A stretch of DNA of 47,647 nt, from the sequence record MF158039; one strand, 5' to 3'. This document shows positions 3,066 through 30,305 of this stretch, piece by piece. Each line of letters starts with the position of its first letter. Positions within the stretch are counted from its first letter, which is position 1. Below the pieces are notes generated by a model. That model was not told where the DNA came from and did not search any database. It worked only from the letters and a program-made list of their open reading frames with translations. The position numbers were made by a program, and so were the translations under genes. The DNA comes from Shigella phage Sf12.

Positions 3066-3401
3066 ATGTTCATACTGGATGTGTTCAGGTTCTGCGAGAG
3101 TTACGAGCGATTCAACAGACAGCATTTGGCGGTATTCATTTACCGCCACAAGGACTGTGAACGCATGGCCAAATCCGCTAGAGTTACCACAAGGTACTTT
3201 GCATCATCTGCTTCAAAGGAGTTTTTAGCGAGGTGCATGACTGAAGGTTACATCGATGGGGTTAATGGTAATTACTGGAGTAAAGGTAGCACAAAGCGAC
3301 CGTTCGGATTCAGCTTCAGATGCCTTAATGGTGAGAGTGATAAGTACACCAATGAGATGATGACGATAAAAGAAATGACAGACGACCAATTGTTCGCATA
3401 A
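3066..3401 (+). CDS. Hypothetical protein, 111 aa
   Basis: ORF track; followed by bidirectional terminator. Confidence 0.4.
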   Translation: MFILDVFRFCESYERFNRQHLAVFIYRHKDCERMAKSARVTTRYFASSASKEFLARCMTEGYIDGVNGNYWSKGSTKRPFGFSFRCLNGESDKYTNEMMTIKEMTDDQLFA

Positions 3402-3407
3402 AAGAAA

Positions 3408-3429
3408 GGAGCCATTAGGCTCCTTTTTT
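3408..3429. terminator. Bidirectional rho-independent terminator between convergent blocks
   Basis: Hairpin ggagccattaggctcc followed by tttttt; T-rich on the other strand too. Confidence 0.65.
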
Positions 3430-3819
3430 GTTTCCTGCAAATCTTAAAGCGAAGTAAGTTAGCAATCCAGAAACTAATCCGGCCAAGACCCCCCAAACCA
3501 AAGAGTCAAAACCAGAATTTTCAGTGCTATGAATCTCAATCTTTTCAGCCGTTATTGTGTTAGCTGAGAGACCAGTAGCAGCAGTCTTTTTCTGGCTTGA
3601 TGAGTCTACATCTCTGTTTGTTGAGTTTCGCATATCGCTTTCTACAGAGCTAGATTTGTCTGTCTGATTTGATAGTCCAACCCCTGTCTTCTGGTTAGAC
3701 TCACCAACCTGAGCTGTTGCCTCAACTCCGTCCTTTGTTGGTAACAAATCAGAAATGGCTGACATGGCAGAGCAACCAGTCAGTAAGGTAATTGCCAGAA
3801 CTACAACTCCGAGACGCAT
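3415..3819 (-). CDS. Unimolecular spanin-like lysis protein (N-terminal lipoprotein signal plus C-terminal transmembrane helix)
   Basis: Lipobox LLTGC at N-terminus; C-terminal hydrophobic WGVLAGLVSGLLTYFAL then NKKGA; directly downstream of endolysin. Confidence 0.6.
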   Translation of the reverse strand: MRLGVVVLAITLLTGCSAMSAISDLLPTKDGVEATAQVGESNQKTGVGLSNQTDKSSSVESDMRNSTNRDVDSSSQKKTAATGLSANTITAEKIEIHSTENSGFDSLVWGVLAGLVSGLLTYFALRFAGNKKGA

Positions 3820-4286
3820 AACTTAATCTCCGCGTTACGCCTGTTAACCAGGCCTTTGCTCACAACTTTCTTGCCACCAACGCTAATTTTATTCCACATT
3901 GATAGCGCCTCACATCCACCACGAATATCACCACGATTCATGCGCCTGATAACAGTTGAATTGCGCATTGCATTGGTTCCGACATTGAATGAAAAACTAT
4001 ACAGTGCCGCCCTGGTGCTTACCGGAACCTCCACCTTCAGAGCTTTATCTACGGCAGCTCGATGAATTGACAGATGCTTCATAAGAAGTGCGTCACATTC
4101 TCGCTGGGTGTAAACCTTACCACGAATAACGTCAGGACCAGTGATACCAGCACAAACAGTCCATACTCCAGCAATGTCCTTATAAGGCCTGTGCTCAACG
4201 CCTTCATGCTCATTCAGGAATGGAACAGCTAGCGCCATAGCACCAGCGACTGCTGAGCCTATAATCTTATTCTTAAAACTCATCAC
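3801..4286 (-). CDS. SAR endolysin (phage lysozyme, T4-lysozyme/GH24-like catalytic motif)
   Basis: E-x8-D-x5-T motif in EGVEHRPYKDIAGVWT; Gly/Ala-rich N-terminal signal-anchor IIGSAVAGAMALAVPFL. Confidence 0.8.
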   Translation of the reverse strand: MMSFKNKIIGSAVAGAMALAVPFLNEHEGVEHRPYKDIAGVWTVCAGITGPDVIRGKVYTQRECDALLMKHLSIHRAAVDKALKVEVPVSTRAALYSFSFNVGTNAMRNSTVIRRMNRGDIRGGCEALSMWNKISVGGKKVVSKGLVNRRNAEIKLCVSEL

Positions 4287-4498
4287 TTGCTCCTTATCCT
4301 CATTGCCTCGCGAATGTCGCCATCCTCAAGTGCTTTATGGAGCGCCTTACTGTCACGCCAGCGCAGCCATGCGCCAAAAATACCAAAGCATACGGCAATA
4401 ACTAAGCCAATAATGCCGATGATTGTGTTGTCAGATAAACCGCCGCCCATAGCTACTCCGCTACCGGACAAAGCGGCTGCGTCATAGAAATGCTTCAT
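4283..4498 (-). CDS. Holin (probably pinholin partner of the SAR endolysin)
   Basis: 71 aa, hydrophobic IIGIIGLVIAVCFGIFGAWL, charged C-terminus; overlaps endolysin start. Confidence 0.6.
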   Translation of the reverse strand: MKHFYDAAALSGSGVAMGGGLSDNTIIGIIGLVIAVCFGIFGAWLRWRDSKALHKALEDGDIREAMRIRSK

Positions 4499-4612
4499 GT
4501 TGCGGCCTCTTTAAGTTGATTTGGTTAAATAATACCAGACATTAACCTTTGACATAAACGAAAAAAGGCAGCCTTAAAGGCCGCCTGTTTGCAACATGAT
4601 GTTTTATATGGC

Positions 4613-4786
4613 TTAGTCTGCGATAATGAATTCCACCAGTTCTCCATCAATGGGAGCGAAGATCCAAGTCATGTCATCGCCATAAATCTTGTAGTTACCA
4701 TCACCCTGGTACTCACCACTGTATGGATTATTTACAGTAAAAGGCAGTGATTTAGATTTGTTGCTAACGCAGAATAATTTAGTCAT
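4613..4786 (-). CDS. Hypothetical small protein, 57 aa
   Basis: Hand-translated MTKLFCVSNK...; preceded by hairpin plus T-run. Confidence 0.3.
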   Translation of the reverse strand: MTKLFCVSNKSKSLPFTVNNPYSGEYQGDGNYKIYGDDMTWIFAPIDGELVEFIIAD

Positions 4787-4798
4787 TTTGATAATCTC

Positions 4799-4987
4799 TC
4801 AACGGTTTACGCAAATAAGCGTTTTTACATTAATCGGGAAGCAGTTGCCACCCACGGTCTTAATCATTACAAAAGTACAGCTAGGGTAATACTCAAGGAT
4901 TGTAGACTTAACTTTCTGCGGTGGGCAATTTGAGAACAAAACTTCATCACCCACCTTAACCATATCAGCTTTAATTGTTTGCAGCAT
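4799..4987 (-). CDS. Hypothetical protein, 62 aa
   Basis: ORF track. Confidence 0.35.
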   Translation of the reverse strand: MLQTIKADMVKVGDEVLFSNCPPQKVKSTILEYYPSCTFVMIKTVGGNCFPINVKTLICVNR

Positions 4988-5172
4988 TAACGCTCCCCAA
5001 GTGCCGAAAGGATTGCATAAGCGATTTCACGTGCATTCTTAGCGGTAAGGTTAATGGTGTCGACTTTTACATCTTCTTCGCTAGATCCATAAGCCTGCGC
5101 AATCTTAAATGTCTTACCAAAGCCAACATCTTTAACTTCGATTTGTGCATCTGATTGTGTGAACTTAGCCAT
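4987..5172 (-). CDS. Hypothetical protein, about 61 aa (ORF 4987..5238, start refined to ATG 5172 behind conserved leader)
   Basis: Leader ccatcgaaacaaacgagaggataaaaagATG. Confidence 0.45.
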   Translation of the reverse strand: MAKFTQSDAQIEVKDVGFGKTFKIAQAYGSSEEDVKVDTINLTAKNAREIAYAILSALGER

Positions 5173-5204
5173 CTTTTTATCCTCTCGTTTGTTTCGATGG
5201 AGTA

Positions 5205-5250
5205 AATATACGCCATCTTTTGATTTCTGTTTTAGCAATTCGTGCTATTT
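5205..5250 (-). promoter_or_regulatory. Junction cassette copy: palindrome (5233..5247) and -10-like TATATT (complement of 5205..5210)
   Basis: ttagcaattcgtgctattt; stop codon of HNH gene lies in the palindrome. Confidence 0.55.
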
Positions 5251-5703
5251 ACCGTGTCTTTCTGTGAAGCAATGATTTGACTCATAGAAGCTGACTGCTA
5301 GCGCCTTTGCCTCATCAAAACTATCAAATGTTCTATGAATCCTGTGATTGTCCTTTTGCAATTGAACTGTGTATTTACCCTTAGCTTTATTGTAAGAAAC
5401 TCCTGTTTGTCCTGTTTTGTTATCTTTTCTCATCGCTGCGTTTTTGCAGTTTACCAGCCTATCTACACATCTTAAGTTTTCTATTCTGTTGTCGTGCTTT
5501 ATTCCATTCAGGTGATCTATCTCCATACCTTTAGTTATCTCACCATTGTGCATTTCCCATATAACTCGGTGGGCAAAAGTCATTTTGTGACCAACCTTTG
5601 TTCTTACGTAGCCCCTTCTGTCAATATACCCAGCCACTGAATTTGTTGTCTTCCTGATTAGATTGCCTTTGTCGTATATGTAGTGTTTATTCCAATCTTC
5701 CAC
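5245..5703 (-). CDS. HNH homing endonuclease (HNH plus AP2-like C-terminal domain)
   Basis: EIDHLNGIKHDNRIENLRCV motif; paralogous to four other copies in the window. Confidence 0.8.
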   Translation of the reverse strand: MEDWNKHYIYDKGNLIRKTTNSVAGYIDRRGYVRTKVGHKMTFAHRVIWEMHNGEITKGMEIDHLNGIKHDNRIENLRCVDRLVNCKNAAMRKDNKTGQTGVSYNKAKGKYTVQLQKDNHRIHRTFDSFDEAKALAVSFYESNHCFTERHGK

Positions 5704-5745: not shown

Positions 5746-6876
5746 TTATTTAAACATTTCTGGTCTGCATGTGAATCGACCAATCTCGCCGTAATCTTTT
5801 GAGTAGATAATAACTGATGCCTGTCGGTATGAGCGGTAACCGCCGTTTGCGCTATAAGCATCTTTAGCACCCAGTTGCCCGTGAGACTCATCAATACCAA
5901 GGTTTCCTTCAGTAATTGTCTGGTGGTGATAGTGGCCGGAATGCGTGTAAACGTATTCAGCATTACCAAATGCTTTTCGATGATCTCTTGCAAGTGTTGA
6001 AAGTCGAGTGTCAGGCTTTCGTAGCTCATGCCCATGACAGTAACCAAGAAGTGTTTTTCCAAACTCAGTCACATGCAATGCGGCTGGAGATGCATCAACA
6101 TTAACTCGGGGCTCATCCATGTAGAATGCTGCCATTGCTGCCCTCAACCAAATCATTCCGCTTAAATCGTGGTTGCCAGGGATAATCTGAACTTCAACCT
6201 CGGCGTGCTTATCAAGCATCTTGCTAATTGCTCGACGAGTAGACCTAACTGCAACGTAAACCAATTTATGATAGCGGCTATCCTGATCTAGCACGTGATG
6301 GCTAGTTGGTGTTACCGCCTCCATGCCGTCAGAATGAAGAAAATCACCGCCAATCAACAACACGGCTTTGCTTGAGTTCGGTGATTTCGCCACAGCGTAA
6401 TCAAAGTAATCATTAAGAACTCGCTCAGCGATTTCTGTGCTATAGTTTTCACCGCATTCGGCATGGTGAGCCATAGCGCCAATGTGCATATCAAAAACAG
6501 GGTAAAGAGCAAGTGTATCTTCATAGCTTGATTCATTTAGCTTCTTCGGTTTCTCGCGAGGCAATTCATCAGTAAGCGCTTTGATTGCAGCCTCCATCAT
6601 TTCTAGCTGCTTCTCTTTATCTTGATCGCTCTTAACCCATTGCTGCTTAATCTCTCCATCTTCACCAATAAGCGTTGAGACACCCTTCACTGCATAGCCA
6701 GTTGGAATGAGGTTACTCACATCACGACCATGACCCTCCCCAGCCTTAGCAAGCTTACCGCGACGCAGTTCTACGTTGCGAATATTCATACCGTACTTCT
6801 CTGCGATTGATTTGTTAGTCATACCGTTAGCCAGTTCTTCTTTAAGTTGTTCGTTCGTAATTTTAGCGATAGCCAT
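5746..6876 (-). CDS. Calcineurin-like metallophosphoesterase with N-terminal HTH-like segment
   Basis: Motifs DMHIG, GGDFLHSDG, GNHD, GHYHH; N-terminus MTNKSIAEKYGMNIRNVELRRGKL. Confidence 0.7.
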   Translation of the reverse strand: MAIAKITNEQLKEELANGMTNKSIAEKYGMNIRNVELRRGKLAKAGEGHGRDVSNLIPTGYAVKGVSTLIGEDGEIKQQWVKSDQDKEKQLEMMEAAIKALTDELPREKPKKLNESSYEDTLALYPVFDMHIGAMAHHAECGENYSTEIAERVLNDYFDYAVAKSPNSSKAVLLIGGDFLHSDGMEAVTPTSHHVLDQDSRYHKLVYVAVRSTRRAISKMLDKHAEVEVQIIPGNHDLSGMIWLRAAMAAFYMDEPRVNVDASPAALHVTEFGKTLLGYCHGHELRKPDTRLSTLARDHRKAFGNAEYVYTHSGHYHHQTITEGNLGIDESHGQLGAKDAYSANGGYRSYRQASVIIYSKDYGEIGRFTCRPEMFK

Positions 6877-20761: not shown

Positions 20762-23700
20762 TTAGTAAACTCCAGTCAAACGGCCAATCTGAACACGAAG
20801 CCTTCCGTTAGCGTCAGCAACAGATATTGTCTCATTTGTTTGCTTCATTCTACCCTCTCCAGCCGTAGAGCCGTTATTTTCGAACGTTCCACCCTTGTCA
20901 AGTCTCCATCCGACAGAGCCAAATACGTAGTTGTTAGACTGAATTGCACCACCAATCTTCGCGTTAGTGATTGAACCGTCCTGAATAACCGCGCTTTGTA
21001 TGAATACCTGGTTATTCTCGACAACGAAAGGCAGCGACCACTGACCGGAACCAGAACTAATGCCGTTACTGATTGCAAACCTGTTAGCATCGAAAATGAA
21101 CTGACTACGAACATTTCCACCACTACCGGTTAACTCCATGCTCATGCCAGCACCGTACTCAACTCCATTGTACTTAAGGCCTAGCTTAACGCCGTACTGA
21201 ACACCAACGCCTTCAACTGTAGCGTAAGAGTCGAGCTTCTGATTCAAAGCCGCCTCGTTATCACCAAGCCTTGCGCTGAGAGCCGTATCAGCAGTAGCCC
21301 TCGCTTCCGTCTCGGTTGCTAGCGCTGTTTCGATAGTTGTAATCTGACCAACAATCTCATCATCAATTTGCGCCTTAAGCTGCGTAAGAGCCTCTACACG
21401 AGCCTCAGTTTCGTTGGCTATTAGATTAACAGCCTGACGATACTCAGCCTTCCTGGCTCCATTTTCACGCCTCATAACACGAACATCAGTATCGTTTGCC
21501 AATGCGTTCTCAATTATTGCCTCGGCCTGGTTCTGAATGTCAGCATTTGCATCTATCGCGTTCTGGAGTAGATACTTGTATCCATCTGAGTTTTCAATAT
21601 CAACCTTAATTTCTCCAATGATTGCACTCACGTCATCCGAAGCCATACCCCTGACAAAATCAGTCCATTGCGATACGTTACCAATCCTGTCGATCGTTCT
21701 TCCCCTATACCAGATCACCTTTCCTGCCGGGAGCGTCGTGTGCCAATACTCAAACTGAGGGTAAGGAACGAGAGTTAACAATGAGGCATTCTCAGGGGTG
21801 TATGTCCCATCGCCATTATCAGCAACTTGCTGCAATTCCACATAAGCAGTATCACCACTATTATTGCCAAAACCCCACTTAACACGGATGCCAAATACTT
21901 CATCATCTGAAGCCGTGATGACCTGCAATGGCTCAGGCTCACCAACCTTACCAGTCAAGCTAACTGTTGTAATTTCAGACCATGCCGATACTGATTTTTG
22001 GTCAGTTACAGCACGAACCCTGACGTCGTAAATGCCAGCGTAGATGCCTTCAATATCAACCTCAGTGTTAGCCGTCTCCGGTACATTAATCCAGTTTCCG
22101 TTATTCTTACGCCATTGCACGTTGTATGTTTTCGCATACTGCACCTTGTCGTAACCGATAACCATCGTCTCAACGCTCATGCCCTGAACTACTTTGCTGT
22201 AACTAGTAACCGTAATGTTCTTCGGTGGTAAAATCCTGTCAGGGTCAACTATGCTTGTTGGCCTGTCGTCGATGTTTACTCCGTAGTCAATCTCATCGTA
22301 CTTGTTAGGGTCATACTGAACAGCCGTGATGCTGTACTGGAATGAATCCTCTCCGTCCGTGTTGGCTTTTTGAATCCCGGTCACAACATATTGCTGTAAA
22401 GCAAGATTCTGCTTGTCGATTGCAAATACCGTATCTGGCTGCGGCGTGAAGCTGAATGCTGTATTCAGCTCAAGCGTCAACTTATCGGCAGATACTGAAG
22501 CGATAGTCCTGTACTCCGGGCTTCCATCTGGCTTGTTGATTAAGATTCTGTCGCCAGGGTCAGCATCAATAGCGAACGGAACAAAAACCTGCAAACCAGT
22601 AGCCTCCACGATTCGACCAGAAAGGTTTAACGTGTAATTGCTTGACCAAGCTTGGTCATTAACAGCAATGACATCACCAATCATAGGAATCATACCTTCG
22701 AGTCCGGTGGTGAATGTTATTGTTTCGCTACGCAAGTTCGTTTTAAGGAGCCAACGACCACGACGGTTAGCCTCGCTACGCCTTACGCATCCAATTGCAG
22801 TCAGGTCTACAGGGTTATACCCAAACCTGCGAGTTGCCTCAAGGTCAAACACTGGCTCTACGTCTTGCTGGTAGTTGTTCTCTACATCATCAAACTGAAC
22901 GTTGGCAGTCGTGTACAAACTCTTATCACTAGCAAACGTGCGGTTGAATAAACCATCGACTACGTTATCATTTGTGAATACGTAACTTGGTTGGCGCGGC
23001 CTGTCAACTACAATCCCAATTTGCTCACCATCATAGAAGGTTAATCCACGGAAAATGGAACAGATGTCACGAATAATCTGATACGCTTCCACTTTCTGCT
23101 GAATGACAACGTTACAAGTATATCGCGGCTCCATTCCACCCTTACCATCCGGGACCATCTGGTCGCAGAATTGCGCAGCTTCATACAGACCCCACTTATC
23201 AATCTCAACTCCAAGCTCTCGCTGGTCAAGCCCATACCTCTGACTGACTACCAGGTCATATAAAACCCACGCCGGGTTATCTGACCATGCCATCTTGAAA
23301 GTTCCATCCCAAGTTCCGCTATAAGTCCGCGTTGCTGGGGTGTAGTTTGTTGGGACTCTAATTATCTTCCACCTTTTCTTGATTGCGATAGGCGGCAACC
23401 CGTTAGGAAAAAGGTCTGAACTGAACTCTACATAAACAAGCGCTGTAAGTGGATAACGGAATTTGGCGTCAATTACTTCCTGATAGGTCGTAATCTGCAT
23501 TCCGTTTACCAGAGTGCTGCTTGTTGAGTCTGGCGTTAACTTCCTAATACGAACAAGAGCGCTGCTAAACTCGGCTGGTAAGTTAACCCTGATACTGCGG
23601 TCGTAACCTGTTGTAGTTTTACCGTTAGCCACGCCTCTGGTATATTCAGTGTACGCTGAGCCATTAACTGATAAATCGATTGCATATTCACATGTTGTGC

Positions 23701-24157
23701 CATTTAAATCTCCATTCTCTTCTTGCTTAACGAGTCTAGGCCAGAACAGCTTGACGCGAATTGCTGATAGCTGACTGTTGTTTACTGCTATGATGTAAGG
23801 TGTATCGTTGTTAATCTCGCGGCTAACCTGAATCTCTGATGCTGCACCATCTAGTCCGGCGATATAGTCTTGAGACTGAGTGCCAGGGCGAAATTCTGCG
23901 GTCACTCCTTCGTAGTTGAATGAGTTATCCTGGTTTTGCACGGGAACGTCAGCAAGGTAAAGGTCTTTAAGTGAAAAGCTTGAGTCAACCTCGCCATCAG
24001 CAACGGCCAGTAGCACCTTAATCTTGTTGAGTGAAATCAGGTTATCTTCTTGCTCTACAGGTGTGTGCTGCTTTTGGCTACCACCCTTGCTTCCATAAAT
24101 CTTTGGCAAATCGGCCATATCATATAACCTCGTTGTTTGTTTAACCATTTGTGCCAT
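20762..24157 (-). CDS. Central tail fiber / host-specificity protein (lambda gpJ-like); probable true start at Met 24118
   Basis: YSGTWDGTF ... DKWGLYEAAQFCDQMVPDGKGGMEPRYTCN resembles lambda J conserved core as recalled. Confidence 0.9.
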   Translation of the reverse strand: MAQMVKQTTRLYDMADLPKIYGSKGGSQKQHTPVEQEDNLISLNKIKVLLAVADGEVDSSFSLKDLYLADVPVQNQDNSFNYEGVTAEFRPGTQSQDYIAGLDGAASEIQVSREINNDTPYIIAVNNSQLSAIRVKLFWPRLVKQEENGDLNGTTCEYAIDLSVNGSAYTEYTRGVANGKTTTGYDRSIRVNLPAEFSSALVRIRKLTPDSTSSTLVNGMQITTYQEVIDAKFRYPLTALVYVEFSSDLFPNGLPPIAIKKRWKIIRVPTNYTPATRTYSGTWDGTFKMAWSDNPAWVLYDLVVSQRYGLDQRELGVEIDKWGLYEAAQFCDQMVPDGKGGMEPRYTCNVVIQQKVEAYQIIRDICSIFRGLTFYDGEQIGIVVDRPRQPSYVFTNDNVVDGLFNRTFASDKSLYTTANVQFDDVENNYQQDVEPVFDLEATRRFGYNPVDLTAIGCVRRSEANRRGRWLLKTNLRSETITFTTGLEGMIPMIGDVIAVNDQAWSSNYTLNLSGRIVEATGLQVFVPFAIDADPGDRILINKPDGSPEYRTIASVSADKLTLELNTAFSFTPQPDTVFAIDKQNLALQQYVVTGIQKANTDGEDSFQYSITAVQYDPNKYDEIDYGVNIDDRPTSIVDPDRILPPKNITVTSYSKVVQGMSVETMVIGYDKVQYAKTYNVQWRKNNGNWINVPETANTEVDIEGIYAGIYDVRVRAVTDQKSVSAWSEITTVSLTGKVGEPEPLQVITASDDEVFGIRVKWGFGNNSGDTAYVELQQVADNGDGTYTPENASLLTLVPYPQFEYWHTTLPAGKVIWYRGRTIDRIGNVSQWTDFVRGMASDDVSAIIGEIKVDIENSDGYKYLLQNAIDANADIQNQAEAIIENALANDTDVRVMRRENGARKAEYRQAVNLIANETEARVEALTQLKAQIDDEIVGQITTIETALATETEARATADTALSARLGDNEAALNQKLDSYATVEGVGVQYGVKLGLKYNGVEYGAGMSMELTGSGGNVRSQFIFDANRFAISNGISSGSGQWSLPFVVENNQVFIQSAVIQDGSITNAKIGGAIQSNNYVFGSVGWRLDKGGTFENNGSTAGEGRMKQTNETISVADANGRLRVQIGRLTGVY

Positions 24158-24169
24158 TCTACACTAAAT

Positions 24170-24190
24170 AAAAAACCCGCACTAGGCGGG
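24170..24190 (-). terminator. Hairpin plus T-run between I and J (possible attenuator)
   Basis: cccgcctagtgcggg then tttttt on minus strand. Confidence 0.45.
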
Positions 24191-24198
24191 TTGTGATT

Positions 24199-24774
24199 TT
24201 AAGCAATATCTTCAGCGTACGAGCCTGCACTAAATACAGCGCCACCAACCGTTCGATATCCATATGGTAGGCATACTGGATTTCCAGCCGCAATGGTGTT
24301 TACTGCTGATCCAAATGCGTATGATGCTCTGTTGCTTGTCTGTGATGCCTGGTCATTCAATCCAGTCGCTTGTGGTGCCAATAACTGAGCTACACCACCA
24401 GCAAGAAGGCCTACAGCCACTGGCAAAAGAACAGGAAAGAAGTAAGACGCCACCAGAAGTACACCGCCAAGGATTGTCTGGAATAAGCCGCCAGATTTTC
24501 GACCTTGAGGTATTGGCATAATCCTGATTTCACGAACAGTCTCAAGGTCATTAATCTTGTGCTCGTTGACATTTTTCCCGTCAACGAATACAGCAAACCT
24601 TGTGTTCTGGCCCACATGGCTACGCATGAATTCTTTAAATTCAGGAATGTTTACAGAAAGAGCTCGCATTGCTTCTGGGACTGTTTTCACGCAAAGCTTA
24701 TGTAGCTTTCCAAACTTCCTGCCCAAACCTAATCCCAACTTAACATCAATCACGTTCTGGGTCATAACCCGCAT
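24199..24774 (-). CDS. Tail assembly protein (lambda gpI-like)
   Basis: C-terminal hydrophobic segment with GGVAQLLAP; position between K and J. Confidence 0.7.
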   Translation of the reverse strand: MRVMTQNVIDVKLGLGLGRKFGKLHKLCVKTVPEAMRALSVNIPEFKEFMRSHVGQNTRFAVFVDGKNVNEHKINDLETVREIRIMPIPQGRKSGGLFQTILGGVLLVASYFFPVLLPVAVGLLAGGVAQLLAPQATGLNDQASQTSNRASYAFGSAVNTIAAGNPVCLPYGYRTVGGAVFSAGSYAEDIA

Positions 24775-25522
24775 CCTCCGGTAAATCTTTATGCCTTACG
24801 ATTCGCACTGTCCGCTCACGATAGTAGTCGCCGTACAAATCAACCTTACTCATCTTACCATATAAATGGTGTAGGATTTTATTATCACCAATATAGATGG
24901 CAGCGTGGTTTGTCTTCTCGCTTTGAATCTGCATCATAATCATCGATCCAATTGGGATGTTATTACCGCGAACTAACTCGAACCCCTCTAACTCCCAATT
25001 GTCATCGTAGATATTGTCAGGGTATTCGTTCGTCCACCACTGATAATCAACGCGGTAGTCATTTAGTTTAACGCCGTGTAGCTTGTGAAATTCCATAACC
25101 AAATTCCAACAGTCGAAGCTGCCAAGACCCCATGGGCGACCAGCAAGCGGCATTTTTTCTGGCTGAATAATCCGTAAGTCCCCTTCAGGTATAGAAACAA
25201 TAACATAAGGCAGCTCGCACTCATTGCAGCTGCAAATATCAGCTGCGCTTGGCCTAGTAGTAGCACCATCACCAGTATGTGAATGTACAACATAAACAAC
25301 GTTTTCATTATCTGAAATCTCCATGAATTCTGATGGGTCAAGAATGAATGATTGCTCTGGTGTTTTGGATACGTTGGTAATCCTGTGATACTTCTGAGCC
25401 ATTCCCTTTTGAGTCACAACCCCGCAAGATTCTTGCGGGTAAACCTCGTTGGCATGTCGAAATATTTCGATTTTTACTTTAGGTGTTAGCATTTTATCTC
25501 CCATGATTCTCATGAAAACCAT
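24746..25522 (-). CDS. Tail tip protein (lambda gpK-like: JAMM/MPN plus NlpC/P60 domains)
   Basis: HSHT JAMM-like motif, Cys/His peptidase signature; position. Confidence 0.7.
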   Translation of the reverse strand: MVFMRIMGDKMLTPKVKIEIFRHANEVYPQESCGVVTQKGMAQKYHRITNVSKTPEQSFILDPSEFMEISDNENVVYVVHSHTGDGATTRPSAADICSCNECELPYVIVSIPEGDLRIIQPEKMPLAGRPWGLGSFDCWNLVMEFHKLHGVKLNDYRVDYQWWTNEYPDNIYDDNWELEGFELVRGNNIPIGSMIMMQIQSEKTNHAAIYIGDNKILHHLYGKMSKVDLYGDYYRERTVRIVRHKDLPEDAGYDPERD

Positions 25523-25971
25523 TTAACCTTCTGAATTCATCTACAGCAATTGATGCTGATTCAAATGATTCATGACTTCCTAAGCTGTATTTCTTCCCAT
25601 TGAAGACAACGCTTGCCCTGTAGTTATTTCTGTCCTTTCTAAATGTGACCCCACTTTCACCGGTTGTATTTCTCTTATTCATTTTCATGTTTTTTTTGAT
25701 TTTCAGAGTGACTAACAATCCTTAAATTTTCTACCCTATTGTCGGACCTCGAACCGTTTATGTGATCTATCTCCATACCTTCTGGTATATCACCGTTGTG
25801 CATTTCCCAAACAATCCTATGCACGTAATGATAACTTCCTTTAGCACCAACCCTCAAGTATCCTCCGCTACGCAAAGAACCCGCTAAAGATCCTATTACT
25901 ATATTTCTGTTTGTCTTCTTATTCCAGTAAAGCTTGCCATCTCTGTATTCAAAAATTTCATTCCAGTTCAT
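25494..25971 (-). pseudogene. HNH homing endonuclease split into two ORFs by a frameshift at a T8 homopolymer (25690..25697)
   Basis: ORF 25675..25971 carries the HNH motif EIDHINGSRSDNRVENLRIV; ORF 25494..25718 carries the C-terminal domain. Confidence 0.6.
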
Positions 25972-25992
25972 TTTTAATCTCCAGTTTAATAG

Positions 25993-26040
25993 ATTATAGG
26001 ATAGCGCATTTCTGCGCTACCCAATTAACAAAAAGTGCTT
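25993..26040 (-). promoter_or_regulatory. Variant junction cassette upstream of the HNH gene: palindrome-like (26026..26040), hairpin, consensus -10 TATAAT
   Basis: ttaacaaaaagtgctt; tagcgcatttctgcgcta hairpin; TATAAT complement of 25993..25998. Confidence 0.4.
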
Positions 26041-26806
26041 AAGTCTGTTGGTTGGCTTTAGCTTGCAGGCTTGCGGCTGCACAACCGCCAAAGTCTAATT
26101 GATTGTTAGCTCCAAACCTTAACTTACAGGCGGTCACGGTTCCAGCACAGAAGTCTTGTGATGGGTCAGTCACAGGCGCGTTGTCCTTATCGAAATATCG
26201 AGTACCCATGTAGTTACATCCATTGCCTGAGCGGTAAAGCCCTCGCTGAGCCCAATAACAAACTGACTGAACAAGGCGCGCCGGAATGTAGATACCATCC
26301 ATATCCATCGGGCTGGTTAGTTCAAATGAGGCCGTATTGTAATCAACCTGCTTAGGTCGCTCAATGAAGTAAACCAGCTTGCGGTAATCGCCATCAGCAA
26401 TGGTGCCATCTTCGTTAATATTCTCCCGAAGGGTGATCCAGATAGTAACCTTGGCCTGAACAAGGCCATTGTAGGTGCGGATAAGCGCAGAAATGTTCTG
26501 GTCAACATTAGAGACAACTAGCGTTACTTTGTTTGCCTTGCCATCAGAAGTCATATTAATACCCTGAATACCGAATGGCCTTGCGCCGTACTCTTCACCA
26601 CGGAAAGTAATTGTCTTCGCTGAAATAGGTTGCCCCGTAGACTGAGCAATCATAATTTCTTCTGGTGTGTAGCTGATGTTCTCTCCATGGAAGCGATACA
26701 CCCTCCCGCCAAACTTAGTGCCATCAACCTCGATTAGCGTAACAATCTCGCCAGGGAACAGGCTTTGTAATTGATTCTCAAACTTAGTGCTTAATGGCGT
26801 AGCCAT
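26039..26806 (-). CDS. Minor tail protein (lambda gpL-like)
   Basis: C-terminal Cys cluster C..C..C..C; position between M and K. Confidence 0.7.
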   Translation of the reverse strand: MATPLSTKFENQLQSLFPGEIVTLIEVDGTKFGGRVYRFHGENISYTPEEIMIAQSTGQPISAKTITFRGEEYGARPFGIQGINMTSDGKANKVTLVVSNVDQNISALIRTYNGLVQAKVTIWITLRENINEDGTIADGDYRKLVYFIERPKQVDYNTASFELTSPMDMDGIYIPARLVQSVCYWAQRGLYRSGNGCNYMGTRYFDKDNAPVTDPSQDFCAGTVTACKLRFGANNQLDFGGCAAASLQAKANQQT

Positions 26807-26820
26807 AATATTTCTCCAAT

Positions 26821-26842
26821 AAAAAAGACCCCGTAGGGTCTT
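26821..26842 (-). terminator. Rho-independent terminator after the moron gene
   Basis: gaccctacggggtc then tttttt on minus strand. Confidence 0.6.
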
Positions 26843-26860
26843 AGTTTATCTCAATTTACA

Positions 26861-27055
26861 TCAATCTTCACTAGTAATAACCTTTGATGCATTTTTTGAG
26901 TAGTGAGAAATCTCATCAAAAGACAATTCAACCCACTCATCCAAGCCAATCTCATAGTAAAGAGGTTTATCTCCAGAGTTATCAATTGTTACAGAGAATG
27001 GCTTTCCATTGTGGAAGTGAACCAGTACGAATTGTGATTTAGGGAAGTTTTTCAT
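26861..27055 (-). CDS. Moron: hypothetical 64-aa protein inserted between tail genes M and L
   Basis: Own junction-cassette promoter upstream and own terminator downstream. Confidence 0.5.
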   Translation of the reverse strand: MKNFPKSQFVLVHFHNGKPFSVTIDNSGDKPLYYEIGLDEWVELSFDEISHYSKNASKVITSED

Positions 27056-27103
27056 TTCATTATCCTCGTTTGTTTGTTTTGGTCATTTCGTTTCGATGAA
27101 GTG

Positions 27104-27150
27104 ATAATACACCACTTCACCGATTCGTCTTTAGCAATTCGTGCTATTTA
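27104..27150 (-). promoter_or_regulatory. Junction cassette copy driving the moron: palindrome (27132..27146), -10-like TATTAT (complement of 27104..27109)
   Basis: tttagcaattcgtgctattta; 22-bp gap; leader catcgaaacgaaatgaccaaaacaaacaaacgaggataATG. Confidence 0.55.
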
Positions 27151-27498
27151 CTGCATCGAGGTAAAAACTTCTACAAACTGCATTGATACAGTCTGCACTT
27201 CCCTAGTGTTTGGTGTGACACTGATGCTGTCTTGAGCCACAACAAACAACCTCAGCTCACCCTGCGGAGTTGTCCAGGCGAACGGGGTGATGATATGCGC
27301 AAAACAGAAGTCTAACACTTCCTTCCAGTTGGTGTTGGTGTAGGTCATGTTGTAAGTGCGCTTATTGGTTCTGTAACCTCCAGTACCAATTTGGGTGTAG
27401 CCATTACCGAATGAGACGCTTCTTACATTGCTTGCGTTGGTAAATGAGCCGCCGCCATTTTGAACCTGTGTACAAAAAGTAAAAGTATCTAATGCCAT
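27148..27498 (-). CDS. Minor tail protein (lambda gpM-like)
   Basis: Size, position between tape measure and L, N-terminal similarity as recalled. Confidence 0.6.
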   Translation of the reverse strand: MALDTFTFCTQVQNGGGSFTNASNVRSVSFGNGYTQIGTGGYRTNKRTYNMTYTNTNWKEVLDFCFAHIITPFAWTTPQGELRLFVVAQDSISVTPNTREVQTVSMQFVEVFTSMQ

Positions 27499-27529
27499 TT
27501 AAAATCCTTAGGGGCCGAAGCCCCATTTA

Positions 27530-30271
27530 TTAACTGTAACCGCGCAAGAACTGGTAAGCAGTCCCGCCCTGCTGGAAGGACTGAGTAATCTCTTCCGCGA
27601 TGATAACCCTGATACCAGATTCTAACTGTTTAGCGTCATTACCGCCACCGCCGCCAAGACCTGTCTGAACGGTAACATTCACTCCACCAACGTTAACGTT
27701 GCTTCCACCAACAAGTCCACCAGTCGCATAACCAGGACCAGAACCAACCACTCCGCCGTTGGCGTATCCGCGCATCAACTTGTACAGGTTGTCTACACCA
27801 ATCCTTGACGTTGCCTCCTTCGTAAAGACAAATTCACCACGATGCACTGTACCAGCTGGCTCGTACTTACCACCGTTTCCAGTGTAACCACCTGAAGCGA
27901 AACCAAATGCGCTACCAATGGAGCCAATAGCACCACCGCTACCGCCAAAACTAGAGATGGTTGACTCAATCGCCTTAATCAAAAGTAGCTGCGTTGCAAT
28001 GCGTGCAATCTGCTTCAAAATCGACGCTGTAAACTCGCGGAAGTTAGCCTCTCCAGTTGTTACCAAGTTTGTAATCTGATCAGTCAAGCCATTAAAGGCA
28101 CTCGTTGCCAATTCAGCTCCAATCTGATTGAAATTTGCCAATTCATCAGCTGTCTCGGCGAATGCTGACCTAACGCCAGCCAGCCAGTTACCACGTAATG
28201 CATCTTCCTGATTGTAGAAATTCTGACGAGCCTGAAGTAGCGCCTGAAAGTCAGTATCGTCTACTGAGCCACCTCGATTAACTTGCTGCGCTGTTAATGC
28301 TGCAATTTCACGCTGCCTCTCCTGCTCCCTTCTTGAAAGTCCAGCTCCAAGTGAAAGCGCTTCAGTCTGGGCGTTAATCTGATTGGTCTTCCTGATGTTT
28401 TCATCAAGTAATTTGTTTGCAGCTTCCTGCTGCTGAATCTGGTCACCTAGAATCGCAGACTTCTCACGCTCTGCAAGAATGATATCTCTCTTGGCGAACA
28501 ATTCACGCTGCGCTGCATTTGCAGTGCCTGCGTTAATTCTTTCCTCGATAACTGCAAACCTCGCCTGTTCATCAATTAGCTGCTTGCGCTGCTGACTGAG
28601 AGTTCTTCCTACCAGTTCCTGATCTTTAAGTACCCTGAGTTGAGCCTCCAGTGCTATCACTCCAGCTTCCGCGTCCTGGGTTAAGTCTCTTTGTTGTCTT
28701 GGCTGCCTTTCTGTGGTCCTCCTCCCATTTCTTGGTTTGTTTGCTTCGGCTAGTTCCTCCTTCCTGATTTCAACAATCCTATTGGCTTGTCTAATTGCCT
28801 CGGCATTACCGCTCAGCCTAATCTTGTTTAGCTGGCTTTCCGCTTGCTGTAATGCTCTAGTCGCACCAGCAACTCTATCAGTAGCGAAGTACTCCTTGTC
28901 GATTGCTGCTACAGTCTCAGCTCTTTCCCTCGCACCTTCACGAAGTGCGTTGTTTAGATCCGTTGCTGTTATCGCTATATCATCAATTGATCGCTGAACC
29001 CTTGCGTTGTTACTGACCTGTGAGTTACCAAGCTGCTGTAAAACTCTAGTTAGAAAACCAACCTCTGTTGCTGCCTGCTTGTAGCTATCAGCAATCCCTG
29101 CGACTTGAGCTTTGTGTTCTGCAATCTTTGCGTTAACTGCGGTGAAGTTTGAAGCATCCTTATACTGATCAACAAGCTCCCTCGCCTCTTCATAGCTCAA
29201 ACCAACATCAATAAGAGCAAGTTCAGCTTCTAAAGCGCCATCTGTAGTTGATACGAATGCTTGTGCAATTGACTCAGCAGACTTGCCTGTCTCCTCCGCG
29301 AGATCAGCGACCAGCTGACCAAGCCTTGATGCGGAATCACCAGTCAGGCCAAGTGATTTCTGAACTGCTGCCGTTCCTTCTTCCAGCCTCTTTTGTGAGT
29401 TGAATATTGATACGCCTAGCGTAGTAAATGCAATTGCAAGAACACCAAGAGAAGCCGTTACAGGGTTAATGTAACTAAGTAAGAACCTAAATGTGTTAGC
29501 GACACCTCCGAAGCTATCCTTAATCTGACCACCCTGCTGTATTGCAATAAGCCAAAGTGGTATGCCGCCAGCGATTGATGTCCCGATGTCTGTAATCTGC
29601 GCCGGAAGTTGTGCAATGGCATTTTTATATTGACCAGCGCTTAACCCTGATTTCCTGAACGCCTCGGCTTGACGACCTAGCGCTTCTACGTTAGCGTTCG
29701 TCCTTTGAGAAATTGATTGAATCAATGGTGCCGCCTGATCTGAAACACCAAGCTGGGCCGCTCTAAGTTCAAGAAGTTCTGTAGTTGTCCTTCCAGCTGC
29801 TAGCTCTTGCTGCCTGAGCGACTCAATGAACCTTTGACCAGCAGAGGCAAGCTTTTCTTTCTCTCTTGAGGCAGCTAGTGAAGCCCTACCTTCCTCAGTC
29901 AATGCGGCAGCACTTCTACGCAGTCTATTTTCCTGAGTCTCAAGAACCTCCCCAAGCCTGAAGAACTGCTCATCAGGAACTACACCAGCGGCAAACGCCT
30001 TATCTAAACCCTCCGCAGCTACACGCAACTTCTGTAGTTTTGAAGCCGTTGGGTCAATCGTCTGACTAAGCCTCTGAAAGGCTATCTGCTGTTCCTGCGT
30101 TGCCCTTGCGGTATCTCTGGCTATTGTCCTGGCAACTTGCTCAGCGTTAACAAACTTATCAACACCAGATGCCGCCTGTTCATTGGCACGTTTAAATTCT
30201 TGCAGGGACTTTGTGCCCTGTTCAACTTGGCGAACGTCAACGCCAAGTGTGATACCTGCAAATTCTGCCAT
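27530..30271 (-). CDS. Tail tape measure protein (start refined to Met 30271)
   Basis: About 910 aa, Ala/Gln-rich coiled-coil, Gly-rich C-terminus; follows G/T chaperones. Confidence 0.8.
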   Translation of the reverse strand: MAEFAGITLGVDVRQVEQGTKSLQEFKRANEQAASGVDKFVNAEQVARTIARDTARATQEQQIAFQRLSQTIDPTASKLQKLRVAAEGLDKAFAAGVVPDEQFFRLGEVLETQENRLRRSAAALTEEGRASLAASREKEKLASAGQRFIESLRQQELAAGRTTTELLELRAAQLGVSDQAAPLIQSISQRTNANVEALGRQAEAFRKSGLSAGQYKNAIAQLPAQITDIGTSIAGGIPLWLIAIQQGGQIKDSFGGVANTFRFLLSYINPVTASLGVLAIAFTTLGVSIFNSQKRLEEGTAAVQKSLGLTGDSASRLGQLVADLAEETGKSAESIAQAFVSTTDGALEAELALIDVGLSYEEARELVDQYKDASNFTAVNAKIAEHKAQVAGIADSYKQAATEVGFLTRVLQQLGNSQVSNNARVQRSIDDIAITATDLNNALREGARERAETVAAIDKEYFATDRVAGATRALQQAESQLNKIRLSGNAEAIRQANRIVEIRKEELAEANKPRNGRRTTERQPRQQRDLTQDAEAGVIALEAQLRVLKDQELVGRTLSQQRKQLIDEQARFAVIEERINAGTANAAQRELFAKRDIILAEREKSAILGDQIQQQEAANKLLDENIRKTNQINAQTEALSLGAGLSRREQERQREIAALTAQQVNRGGSVDDTDFQALLQARQNFYNQEDALRGNWLAGVRSAFAETADELANFNQIGAELATSAFNGLTDQITNLVTTGEANFREFTASILKQIARIATQLLLIKAIESTISSFGGSGGAIGSIGSAFGFASGGYTGNGGKYEPAGTVHRGEFVFTKEATSRIGVDNLYKLMRGYANGGVVGSGPGYATGGLVGGSNVNVGGVNVTVQTGLGGGGGNDAKQLESGIRVIIAEEITQSFQQGGTAYQFLRGYS

Positions 30272-30305
30272 GTAACCTCCATAAAAAAACCTCCACAAAG
30301 GGAGG

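What the first reader, a model, noticed from the sequence alone, without database searches (positions are those of the whole stretch)
3415..4498. Lysis cassette combining pinholin-like holin, SAR endolysin and a unimolecular spanin
Gene order and topologies (signal-anchor endolysin; lipobox plus C-terminal TMD protein) match the SAR/pinholin/u-spanin scheme known from phage 21, P1 and T1. This supports a T1-like lysis strategy, with the tail tip being lambda-like.
Basis: partly seen in the sequence, partly recalled or inferred. Interest (0 to 1): 0.3.

Follow-up and report, generated by a model that had tools for sequence, protein, structure and literature searches.

The report
Ordinary T1-type phage lysis cassette
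The region holds the standard three-gene host-lysis module of T1-like coliphages (small holin, membrane-tethered lysozyme, single-protein outer-membrane disruptor). The same module is already catalogued in this phage's close relatives, so the finding is correct but ordinary.

Summary
Window 3415-4498 is filled on the minus strand by exactly three tightly coupled genes. They are a 71-aa holin (4283-4498), a 160-aa GH24 endolysin (3801-4283) and a 134-aa unimolecular spanin (3415-3819).

The endolysin has a Gly/Ala/Ser-rich N-terminal signal-anchor segment and an E27-x8-D36-x5-T42 catalytic triad. Its closest solved relatives are the proven SAR endolysin R21 and RrrD (E about 1e-37).

The spanin has a lipobox (LTGC, Cys16, Ser at +2), a 90-residue Cys-free periplasmic domain and a C-terminal TMD. 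It is homologous to T1 gp11 and 90-92% identical to spanins already listed in the published T1gp11 family.

The window is a Rogunavirinae (Drexlerviridae) phage, about 87-89% nucleotide-identical to phiEB49, C119 and others.

Only "pinholin-like" stays inferential. The holin is a T1 gp13 homologue and is not detectably homologous to the phage 21 pinholin. Its weakly hydrophobic N-terminal segment and its pairing with a SAR endolysin fit a pinholin, but no T1-type holin has been tested. The u-spanin part of the cited scheme applies to T1 only.

A DUF7244 (SH3-like) gene lies upstream, behind a terminator-like hairpin that recurs at the same position in T1 and AN_ECEAS. Verdict: already known, low interest.

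The parts
4613..4786 (-). 57-aa standalone SH3-like protein (DUF7244), directly upstream of the lysis cassette. It is a possible accessory lysis factor, not a proven part of the cassette.
   Evidence: Pfam PF23896 DUF7244 E 3.5e-29, full length. PMC13164509 reports this family next to the holin in 188 of 522 Drexlerviridae and proposes, without any experiment, a role in lysis.
4566..4586 (-). Terminator-like hairpin plus U-run between the DUF7244 gene and the holin gene.
   Evidence: Terminator scan gives 9 pairs, 6 of them G-C, followed by TTTTTTCG. RNA fold -15.4 kcal/mol, z -2.9. A hairpin plus T-run sits at the same position, with different stem sequences, in T1 and AN_ECEAS.
4529..4555 (-). 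Promoter-like element for the cassette (inferred): ATGTCA, a 15-nt spacer, then the extended -10 TGgTATTAT.
   Evidence: Read directly from the sequence. A similar xTGxCA / 15 nt / TAxxAT arrangement aligns in T1 and AN_ECEAS. The consensus scan did not report it, so this is weak evidence.
4283..4498 (-). Holin, 71 aa, T1 gp13 type. Weakly hydrophobic G/A/S-rich N-terminal segment at residues 7-21 (nt 4436-4480), main TMD at residues 25-43 (nt 4370-4426), and a conserved basic cytoplasmic tail. Shine-Dalgarno AGAGG lies 7 nt upstream.
   Evidence: phrog_2877 E 2.7e-36. 37% identity to T1 gp13, E 2e-16. Hydropathy. Family alignment with invariant D49 S50 A52 A56 A65.
3801..4283 (-). SAR endolysin, 160 aa, GH24 muramidase of the R21 type. 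SAR segment at residues 7-23 (nt 4215-4265) and catalytic E27-x8-D36-x5-T42 (nt 4158-4205). Cysteines at 44, 63, 124 and 156, none in the SAR segment. The ATG shares one base with the holin stop codon.
   Evidence: Pfam Phage_lysozyme E 1.2e-37. PDB sequence search: RrrD 4zpu E 1.6e-37 and R21 3hde E 6.9e-37. 49% identity to T1 gp12. AF2 model pLDDT 88.4; best fold matches 4zpu and 3hde, TM 0.83-0.85 over 161-166 alignment columns. Feature table.
3415..3819 (-). Unimolecular spanin, 134 aa. Lipoprotein signal peptide with lipobox LTGC (nt 3772-3783; Cys16, Ser +2), a 90-residue Cys-free periplasmic domain rich in S/T/N/Q, a C-terminal TMD at residues 107-125 (nt 3445-3501), and the basic tail RFAGNKKGA. 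It overlaps the endolysin 3' end by 19 nt.
   Evidence: phrog_1804 E 2.4e-46. 35% identity to T1 gp11, E 9e-17. 90-92% identity to the AHP42, e4/1c and phiJLA23 spanins, which are listed in the T1gp11 family. Lipobox and TMD analysis.
3405..3426 (.). Hairpin that folds on both strands, with a T-run on each side. It closes the lysis cassette and the convergent plus-strand gene 3066-3401. The spanin stop codon TAA (3415-3417) lies in its loop.
   Evidence: The terminator scan reported it on the minus strand only. RNA folds: -19.4 kcal/mol (minus strand, z -4.3) and -19.5 kcal/mol (plus strand, z -4.6). T-runs on both strands read directly from the sequence.

Best explanation
This is the lysis module of a T1-like (Drexlerviridae, Rogunavirinae) siphophage. 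It probably works in three steps.

1. The 160-aa muramidase is exported by Sec but stays tethered to the inner membrane, enzymatically inactive, by its weakly hydrophobic N-terminal SAR segment.
2. The 71-aa holin accumulates in the inner membrane. At a set time it triggers and collapses the proton-motive force, most likely through small 'pinholes'. The SAR segment then leaves the bilayer and the enzyme refolds into its active form. As in R21, this would happen without disulfide isomerisation, because the SAR segment has no Cys. The active enzyme degrades the murein.
3. The 134-aa u-spanin is lipoylated at Cys16 and sorted to the outer membrane (Ser at +2), while its C-terminal TMD stays in the inner membrane. 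It is therefore threaded through the murein. Once the murein is gone, it is free to pull or fuse the two membranes and destroy the outer membrane.

Shown here: gene content and order, homology, catalytic residues, and the lipobox, TMD and SAR sequence features and their conservation. Inferred from characterised homologues (R21, T1 gp11, S21): membrane tethering and release, hole size, lipoylation, and membrane fusion.

The three genes are translationally coupled. They appear to form their own transcription unit between two terminator-like hairpins.
For: - Identity of the phage and conserved synteny (exonuclease, small genes, holin, endolysin, spanin, convergent on a DUF3987 helicase) across four Drexlerviridae subfamilies plus two genera with no subfamily listed.
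- Family assignments: phrog_2877, Phage_lysozyme/phrog_7 and phrog_1804.
- Pairwise homology to T1 gp13, gp12 and gp11.
- The closest solved structures are R21 and RrrD, by sequence and by fold.
- The E-x8-D-x5-T triad, four conserved Cys, no Cys in the SAR segment, and a 15-19-residue uncharged core that is 41-58% G/A/S/T in all ten family endolysins examined; R21 itself has 23 residues at 65%.
- Lipobox, non-Asp +2 residue, C-terminal TMD, basic tail and no periplasmic Cys in all ten spanins examined.
- The holin N-terminal segment is comparable in hydrophobicity (KD 1.15 against 0.63) and G/A/S/T content (0.73 against 0.60) to TMD1 of S21 68.
- Three of nine T1-type holins hit phrog_20, the PHROG that contains S21. 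Others hit phrog_1350 and phrog_4237, which S21 also hits.
- Literature: T1 gp11 complements lambda Rz/Rz1; T1gp11-family cassettes are described as pinholin plus SAR endolysin (PMC6139136); T1 gp13 is predicted to be a two-TMD class II pinholin and gp12 a SAR endolysin (PMC11447400; PMC13164509).
Against: - No functional data exist for any T1-type holin or endolysin in the literature I could search.
- The holin has no detectable homology to S21. Its N-terminal segment is only about 15-16 residues between D6 and D23, which is short for a membrane span.
- The AF2 model of the spanin is low-confidence (pLDDT 55.6) and shows no beta structure in the periplasmic domain. The published 'beta-rich' description could not be reproduced here.
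- The promoter call is weak: the scan did not detect it.
Confidence: 0.88

Rival explanations
1. The holin is a canonical, large-hole holin (or a single-TMD holin of another class) that merely depolarises the membrane for the SAR endolysin, as P1 LydA does. It is not a pinholin.
For: Only one unambiguous TMD (25-43). The N-terminal segment is about 15 residues with KD 1.15. No homology to S21 by Pfam, BLASTP or hhalign. SAR endolysins are known to work with canonical holins: P1 LydA and LydC (PMC9025707), and a preprint titled 'Phage N4 uses a SAR endolysin-holin system' was listed.
Against: The 71-aa size, the G/A/S/T-rich first segment resembling S21 TMD1, adjacency to a SAR endolysin, weak recurrent profile hits to the PHROGs that S21 hits, and the published (prediction-based) classification of the T1 and TLS holins as pinholins.
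Confidence: 0.25
2. The endolysin N-terminus is an ordinary cleavable Sec signal peptide, so the enzyme is secreted as a soluble periplasmic protein and controlled in some other way.
For: An A-L-A motif at residues 17-19 could serve as an AxA signal-peptidase site (read directly from the sequence). The homologue in phage vB_EcoS-95 carries the annotation 'signal peptide found with Phobious'.
Against: The protein aligns with R21 over query residues 9-157, and R21 is uncleaved and needs its SAR domain for the active fold (Sun et al. 2009, my own knowledge). In the AF2 model a continuous helix, residues 3-27, ends at the catalytic Glu27, with block-mean pLDDT 82-86 over residues 11-30. The G/A/S/T-rich composition is conserved across the family. 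A freely secreted muramidase would cause premature lysis.
Confidence: 0.06
3. The third gene encodes a lipoprotein with another role, for example superinfection exclusion as with Cor or Llp, and not an outer-membrane disruptor.
For: T1-like phages do encode a superinfection-exclusion lipoprotein, Cor (PMC13164509). No functional test exists for this allele.
Against: Full-length homology to T1 gp11, which complements the lambda Rz/Rz1 lysis defect (PMC6139136). The C-terminal TMD and the last-gene-in-cassette position are conserved in every Drexlerviridae cassette examined; in the podophage IME309 the spanin gene precedes the holin.
Confidence: 0.03

Closest known systems
Phage T1 lysis cassette (gp13 holin, gp12 endolysin, gp11 u-spanin) and its orthologues in Rogunavirinae (phiEB49, C119, phiJLA23, Rogue1 and others)
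   Same: Same three genes in the same order and same flanking synteny. Identity to T1 is 37%, 49% and 35% for the three proteins, and the region is 86-89% nucleotide-identical to Rogunavirinae phages. The holin is 71 aa in both. Both endolysins have the E27/D36/T42 triad and four Cys. Both spanins have a lipobox, a C-terminal TMD and no periplasmic Cys.
   Different: The endolysin and spanin genes overlap by 19 nt here and in phiEB49, against 1 nt in T1. The spanin signal peptide is 6 residues shorter (Cys16 against Cys22). The spanin TMD is Gly-rich (G110xxxG114xxxG118, KD 1.84), whereas T1's is strongly hydrophobic (KD 3.16).
Phage 21 R21 / DLP12 RrrD SAR endolysins (PDB 3HDE, 4ZPU)
   Same: GH24 fold, E-x8-D-x5-T triad, four equivalent Cys, and an N-terminal G/A-rich signal anchor without Cys. 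About 42-43% identity and TM 0.83-0.85.
   Different: The SAR-to-catalytic-Glu distance is 8 residues shorter (E27 against E35). The uncharged core is shorter and less Gly-rich: 17 aa at 47% G/A/S/T against 23 aa at 65%. Phage 21 pairs its endolysin with a two-component Rz/Rz1 spanin (my own knowledge).
Phage 21 pinholin S21 68 (Pfam PF04971)
   Same: About 70 aa, a weakly hydrophobic G/A/S/T-rich first segment, a stronger second TMD containing small-xxx-small motifs, a basic C-terminal tail, and a gene immediately upstream of a SAR endolysin.
   Different: No detectable sequence homology. No dual-start (antiholin) motif and no in-frame upstream start. The C-terminal tail is the most conserved part of the T1-type family. 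Hole size has not been tested.
Lambda Rz/Rz1 two-component spanin
   Same: Same inferred job: it links the inner and outer membranes through the murein and disrupts the outer membrane once the murein is degraded. T1 gp11 complements Rz/Rz1 (PMC6139136).
   Different: One polypeptide instead of two. No coiled-coil helices and no periplasmic Cys or disulfide-linked dimers. No sequence similarity.

Membership tests
T1 gp11 u-spanin family | N-terminal lipoprotein signal peptide with a lipobox and the lipoylated Cys | tested here: met
   MR + 10-residue hydrophobic region + LTGC, with Cys16. Matches the PROSITE-type lipobox pattern. G15 and C16 are invariant in 17 aligned family members.
T1 gp11 u-spanin family | Outer-membrane sorting (no Asp at +2) | tested here: met
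   Ser17-Ala18 follow Cys16. The +2 residue is Ser or Ala in all ten spanins examined.
T1 gp11 u-spanin family | C-terminal transmembrane domain followed by a short basic tail | tested here: met
   Residues 107-125, LVWGVLAGLVSGLLTYFAL (KD 1.94), then RFAGNKKGA. The AF2 helix 103-128 is the only confident part of the model.
T1 gp11 u-spanin family | Sequence homology to gp11 (the published family threshold is 40% identity over 40% of the length to a member) | tested here: met
   35% identity to T1 gp11, E 9e-17. phrog_1804 E 2.4e-46. 90-92% identity to the AHP42, e4/1c and phiJLA23 spanins, which are listed family members.
T1 gp11 u-spanin family | No periplasmic cysteine | tested here: met
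   Cys16 is the only Cys in the protein.
T1 gp11 u-spanin family | Periplasmic domain with a short helix followed by four or more beta elements | tested here: inconclusive
   AF2 with a 17-sequence alignment gave pLDDT 55.6. It shows a short helix at 18-22, and the rest of the periplasmic domain is unstructured at pLDDT below 50.
T1 gp11 u-spanin family | Complements the lambda Rz/Rz1 lysis defect | not testable with these tools
   Shown for T1 gp11 only (PMC6139136).
SAR endolysin (R21 type, GH24) | GH24 muramidase domain with the E-x8-D/C-x5-T catalytic triad | tested here: met
   Pfam PF00959 E 1.2e-37. E27, D36 and T42 are present and invariant in the alignment.
SAR endolysin (R21 type, GH24) | N-terminal weakly hydrophobic segment rich in Gly/Ala/Ser/Thr, preceded by basic residues | tested here: met
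   MSFKNK + IIGSAVAGAMALAVPFL: 17 aa, 47% G/A/S/T, KD 1.93, which lies between T1 gp12 (1.39) and R21 (2.20).
SAR endolysin (R21 type, GH24) | Homology to an experimentally proven SAR endolysin over the full length | tested here: met
   R21 3hde E 6.9e-37, query residues 9-157. Fold match TM 0.85 over 163 columns.
SAR endolysin (R21 type, GH24) | No Cys in the SAR segment (separates the R21 type from the P1 Lyz / Lyz103 disulfide-regulated types) | tested here: met
   Cys only at 44, 63, 124 and 156, equivalent to R21 Cys52, 71, 132 and 160.
SAR endolysin (R21 type, GH24) | Uncleaved, membrane-tethered, and released on depolarisation | not testable with these tools
   Needs fractionation and energy-poison experiments. 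TMHMM, SignalP and LipoP are not available here.
Pinholin (S21 68 paradigm) | Sequence membership in the P21 holin S family (PF04971) | tested here: not met
   No Pfam hit at E<=10, whereas S21 scores 8.6e-36. No BLASTP alignment. hhalign probability 0.9%. Only weak profile hits to phrog_20, phrog_1350 and phrog_4237, which S21 also hits.
Pinholin (S21 68 paradigm) | Two TMDs (N-in, C-in), with TMD1 SAR-like | tested here: inconclusive
   The strong TMD is 25-43. The N-terminal segment 7-21 is 73% G/A/S/T with KD 1.15, higher than S21 TMD1 at 0.63, but it spans only about 15-16 residues between D6 and D23.
Pinholin (S21 68 paradigm) | Encoded next to, and acting with, a SAR endolysin | tested here: met
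   The holin stop codon overlaps the SAR endolysin start codon.
Pinholin (S21 68 paradigm) | Forms nanometre-scale holes and cannot release a cytoplasmic endolysin | not testable with these tools
   This is the functional definition (for example the LydD test in PMC9025707). I found no such data for T1-type holins.
T1 gp13-type holin (phrog_2877) | Full-length profile match plus the conserved C-terminal RDSKA...A...A tail | tested here: met
   phrog_2877 E 2.7e-36, positions 1-71 of 71. All nine aligned members hit it. Invariant D49 S50 A52 A56 A65.

The most novel reading that the evidence does not exclude
The 71-aa T1-type holins (phrog_2877) could be an evolutionarily independent pinholin lineage that converged on the S21 architecture. 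Their invariant cytoplasmic tail (R-D-S-K-A-x3-A-x8-A) would be a timing or regulatory domain. The DUF7244 SH3-like gene just upstream would be a fourth, separately transcribed lysis factor, since it is insulated from the holin by a conserved terminator-like hairpin. None of this has been tested experimentally in any Drexlerviridae phage.
Probability: 0.25. Interest if true: 0.35.

Novelty: already known. Interest (0 to 1): 0.08.

Why it matters
It matters little beyond correct annotation. It confirms that the window is a T1-like (Rogunavirinae) phage with the family's standard SAR-endolysin and u-spanin lysis module. It fixes the endolysin start at the ATG at 4283 and the holin at the full 71-aa form. 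phiEB49's RefSeq record annotates a 55-aa holin, a length that matches a start at the internal Met17.

The one scientifically open point applies to the whole family, not to this window. No T1-type holin has been shown to be a pinholin, and the family is not detectably homologous to the phage 21 paradigm.

Tried and rejected
1. AF2 of the spanin with a 17-sequence alignment gave pLDDT 55.6 and an unstructured periplasmic domain. It says nothing either way about the published beta-rich prediction.
2. Homology between T1-type holins and S21 was tested by BLASTP, Pfam and hhalign. All were negative. Only weak PHROG cross-hits remain.
3. An exhaustive phmmer search of 1.84 billion representative proteins with the holin found only 9 clusters at E<=0.001, so the family is narrow. 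One hit, P0122 (1518 aa), matched many unrelated Pfam families through short fragments and looks like a chimeric artefact.
4. I checked for a hidden embedded gene. A 44-aa alternative-frame ORF with a hydrophobic stretch lies inside the endolysin gene (4079-4213, minus strand). It is not conserved in phiEB49, T1, Trimon, AN_ECEAS or EcoS-95, so I rejected it as chance.
5. I checked for an antiholin dual start. There is no in-frame start upstream of Met1. The internal Met17 has a GGAG 5 nt upstream, but T1 has Leu at the aligned position, so I did not adopt it.
6. NCBIfam has no model that names the holin, the spanin or the DUF7244 protein.
7. The J Virol 2018 paper on T1 gp11 localisation (PMC6206483) is not in the library.
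8. The consensus promoter scan found nothing between the upstream hairpin and the holin. The promoter I list comes from reading the sequence and from alignment only.
Full report
**What is there.** Window 3415-4498 is completely occupied, on the minus strand, by three ORFs.
- A 71-aa ORF at 4283-4498.
- A 160-aa ORF at 3801-4283. The ORF listing extends it by one codon to a GTG at 4286. I take the ATG at 4283 as the start, because the GGAG sits 6 nt before it and every homologue begins MS(F/L/I)K.
- A 134-aa ORF at 3415-3819.

The holin stop codon and the endolysin ATG share one base (TGATG). The endolysin and spanin genes overlap by 19 nt, with a GGAG 8 nt before the spanin ATG. The cassette is bracketed by two terminator-like hairpins. 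One lies at 4586-4566 on the minus strand. The other, at 3405-3426, folds on both strands and carries the spanin stop codon in its loop.

**Family assignments.**
- The first protein matches phrog_2877 'holin' over its full length (E 2.7e-36).
- The second matches Pfam Phage_lysozyme (E 1.2e-37) and phrog_7 'endolysin'.
- The third matches phrog_1804 'Rz-like spanin' over its full length (E 2.4e-46).

**Which phage this is.** The region is 86-89% nucleotide-identical to Escherichia phages phiEB49, C119, phiJLA23, phiKP26, AKS96, Rogue1 and others. In those records the three genes are annotated holin, endolysin and Rz-like or u-spanin. The first 25 kb of the window matches the same Rogunavirinae (Drexlerviridae) phages at about 85-88% identity over 61-67% of its length.

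Against phage T1 itself the three proteins are 37%, 49% and 35% identical, with E-values of 2e-16, 1e-55 and 9e-17. The synteny is: exonuclease, small genes, holin, endolysin, spanin, convergent on a DUF3987 helicase. It holds in Tunavirinae, Braunvirinae, Tempevirinae and Rogunavirinae, and in Webervirus and Kyungwonvirus. A homologous spanin also occurs in a 43-kb Klebsiella podophage, in the order spanin, holin, endolysin.

**Endolysin.**
- The catalytic triad E27-x8-D36-x5-T42 is present and invariant in the family alignment.
- The N-terminus is MSFKNK followed by the 17-residue uncharged segment IIGSAVAGAMALAVPFL. That segment is 47% G/A/S/T with a best 15-mer Kyte-Doolittle mean of 1.93, between T1 gp12 (1.39) and the proven SAR endolysin R21 (2.20).
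- The closest solved structures by sequence are DLP12 RrrD (4zpu, E 1.6e-37) and full-length R21 (3hde, E 6.9e-37), aligned over query residues 9-157.
- An AF2 model (pLDDT 88.4) has a helix at residues 3-27 that ends at the catalytic Glu. Its best fold matches are 4zpu and 3hde, at TM 0.83-0.85 over 161-166 alignment columns.
- There is no Cys in the SAR segment. The four Cys (44, 63, 124, 156) are equivalent to those of R21. It is therefore the R21 type, not the P1 Lyz disulfide-isomerisation type (the mechanism of those types is from my own knowledge of Xu 2005 and Sun 2009).

**Spanin.**
- The signal peptide is MR plus a 10-residue hydrophobic region plus the lipobox LTGC, with Cys16. Ser at +2 predicts outer-membrane sorting.
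- The periplasmic domain is 90 residues, 41% S/T/N/Q and free of Cys.
- The C-terminal TMD is at 107-125, followed by the basic tail RFAGNKKGA.
- All ten family spanins examined share this layout despite only 30-45% identity. G15, C16, S17, A36, Q37, G39 and N42, among others, are invariant.
- It is 90-92% identical to the AHP42, e4/1c and phiJLA23 spanins. Kongari et al. 2018 list these by name in the 28-member T1gp11 u-spanin family.
- That paper reports that T1 gp11 complements the lambda Rz/Rz1 defect and that u-spanins lack periplasmic Cys. It also states that all members of the family except J8-65 and Limezero lie in pinholin plus SAR-endolysin cassettes.
- AF2 gave a low-confidence model (pLDDT 55.6). 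Only the signal-peptide helix, a short helix at 18-22 and the TMD helix were structured, so the published beta-rich prediction could not be checked.

**Holin.** It has one clear TMD (25-43, KD 2.56) and a basic tail with net charge +3. Its N-terminal segment AAALSGSGVAMGGGL (7-21) is 73% G/A/S/T with KD 1.15. That segment is at least as hydrophobic as TMD1 of the phage 21 pinholin S21 68 (KD 0.63, 60% G/A/S/T). However, it spans only about 15-16 residues between D6 and D23.

The family is narrow. Only nine 50%-identity clusters appear among 1.84 billion representative proteins. Its most conserved part is the cytoplasmic tail, with invariant D49, S50, A52, A56 and A65.

It is not detectably homologous to S21.
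- There is no PF04971 hit at E<=10, while S21 scores 8.6e-36.
- BLASTP finds no alignment.
- hhalign gives probability 0.9%.
- The only link is weak. Three of nine members hit phrog_20 (best E 1.1e-7), and some hit phrog_1350 or phrog_4237. S21 also hits all three of these PHROGs.

Published papers call the T1 and TLS holins class II pinholins on prediction alone. I found no functional test. 'Pinholin-like' is therefore plausible, at about 0.65-0.7, but it is an inference.

**How it most likely works.** The endolysin is exported by Sec and held inactive in the inner membrane. When the holin triggers, the membrane depolarises, the SAR segment exits and the enzyme refolds and cuts the murein. 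The u-spanin is lipoylated into the outer membrane and anchored in the inner membrane by its C-terminal TMD. Once the murein is gone it is released from that constraint and disrupts the outer membrane, probably by membrane fusion. The sequence features and homologies are shown here. The dynamic steps are inferred from R21, S21 and T1 gp11.

It is supported, with two corrections.
1. The cited scheme is a composite. Phage 21 and P1 have two-component spanins (P1 in PMC9025707; phage 21 from my own knowledge), so only T1 provides the u-spanin.
2. The pinholin label is not established by sequence.

The lambda-like tail tip is real. Pfam finds GpJ domains, Lambda_tail_I, a K-like JAB+NlpC/P60 protein, Phage_tail_L and a lambda-type tape measure.

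**Surroundings.** Immediately upstream, at 4613-4786 on the minus strand, lies a 57-aa DUF7244 standalone SH3-like protein (E 3.5e-29). A 2026 paper reported this family next to the lysis cassette in 188 of 522 Drexlerviridae and proposed, without experiment, that it is an auxiliary lysis factor.

Here the DUF7244 gene is separated from the holin by the terminator-like hairpin. The position of that hairpin, though not its stem sequence, is conserved in T1 and AN_ECEAS. It is followed by a weak promoter-like element with an extended -10. The SH3 gene may therefore not be co-transcribed with the lysis genes.

No embedded extra gene is conserved inside the cassette.

**Verdict.** This is a correctly recognised, already catalogued lysis module in a new isolate of a known phage group. 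It is of low interest.

Noticed in passing
window 4613-4786 (-) and 4566-4586 (-): A DUF7244 standalone SH3-like gene sits just upstream of the holin, as reported for Drexlerviridae in 2026. It is separated from the holin by a terminator-like hairpin. The hairpin's position is conserved in T1 and AN_ECEAS, but its stem sequence differs. This suggests the SH3 gene belongs to a different transcription unit from the lysis genes.
   Followed up: partly
window 4448-4463 (-), holin codon 17: An internal ATG (Met17) is preceded by GGAG 5 nt upstream (AGCGGAGTAGCTATG). Starting there would give a 55-aa holin lacking the weak N-terminal segment. phiEB49's RefSeq record annotates a 55-aa holin, a length that matches this start. 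T1 has Leu at the aligned position, so it is probably not a conserved second start.
   Followed up: partly
window 3445-3501 (-), spanin TMD: The u-spanin TMD in this phage, in phiEB49 and in several closer aligned relatives carries a glycine-zipper-like G110xxxG114xxxG118 motif and is only moderately hydrophobic (KD 1.84). T1 gp11's TMD is strongly hydrophobic (KD 3.16) and has no such motif. This may matter for spanin oligomerisation.
   Followed up: no
window 3405-3426: The spanin stop codon lies in the loop of a hairpin that folds on both strands, and the last codons (KKGA) form one stem arm. The hairpin is shared with the convergent plus-strand gene at 3066-3401 (111 aa, no Pfam hit).
   Followed up: partly
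window 5245-5703 (-): An HNH_3 homing endonuclease (E 4.4e-19) lies between the 376-aa ORF at 5746-6876 (the position held by the DNA repair exonuclease in relatives; no Pfam hit) and the small genes upstream of the lysis cassette. The 2026 paper found such HNH genes near the cassette in only 25 of 522 Drexlerviridae.
   Followed up: no
window 4799-4987 (-) and 4987-5238 (-): Two small ORFs (62 and 83 aa) between the HNH gene and the DUF7244 gene have no Pfam match. Their function is unknown.
   Followed up: no
window 20762-30298 (-): Lambda-like tail-tip module: a J-like protein of 1131 aa (FNIII-A_GpJ, Phage_Tail_Tip), an I-like protein, a K-like protein (JAB + NlpC/P60), an L-like protein, and a tape measure with the lambda C-terminal domain.
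   Followed up: partly
L006 (Klebsiella podophage vB_KpnP_IME309) 1480-2711: A T1gp11-type u-spanin (37% identity) occurs in a 43-kb podophage in a different gene order (spanin, holin, endolysin), with an 83-aa holin and a 199-aa endolysin that has a G/A/S/T-rich N-terminus. The spanin family therefore crosses phage morphotypes.
   Followed up: no
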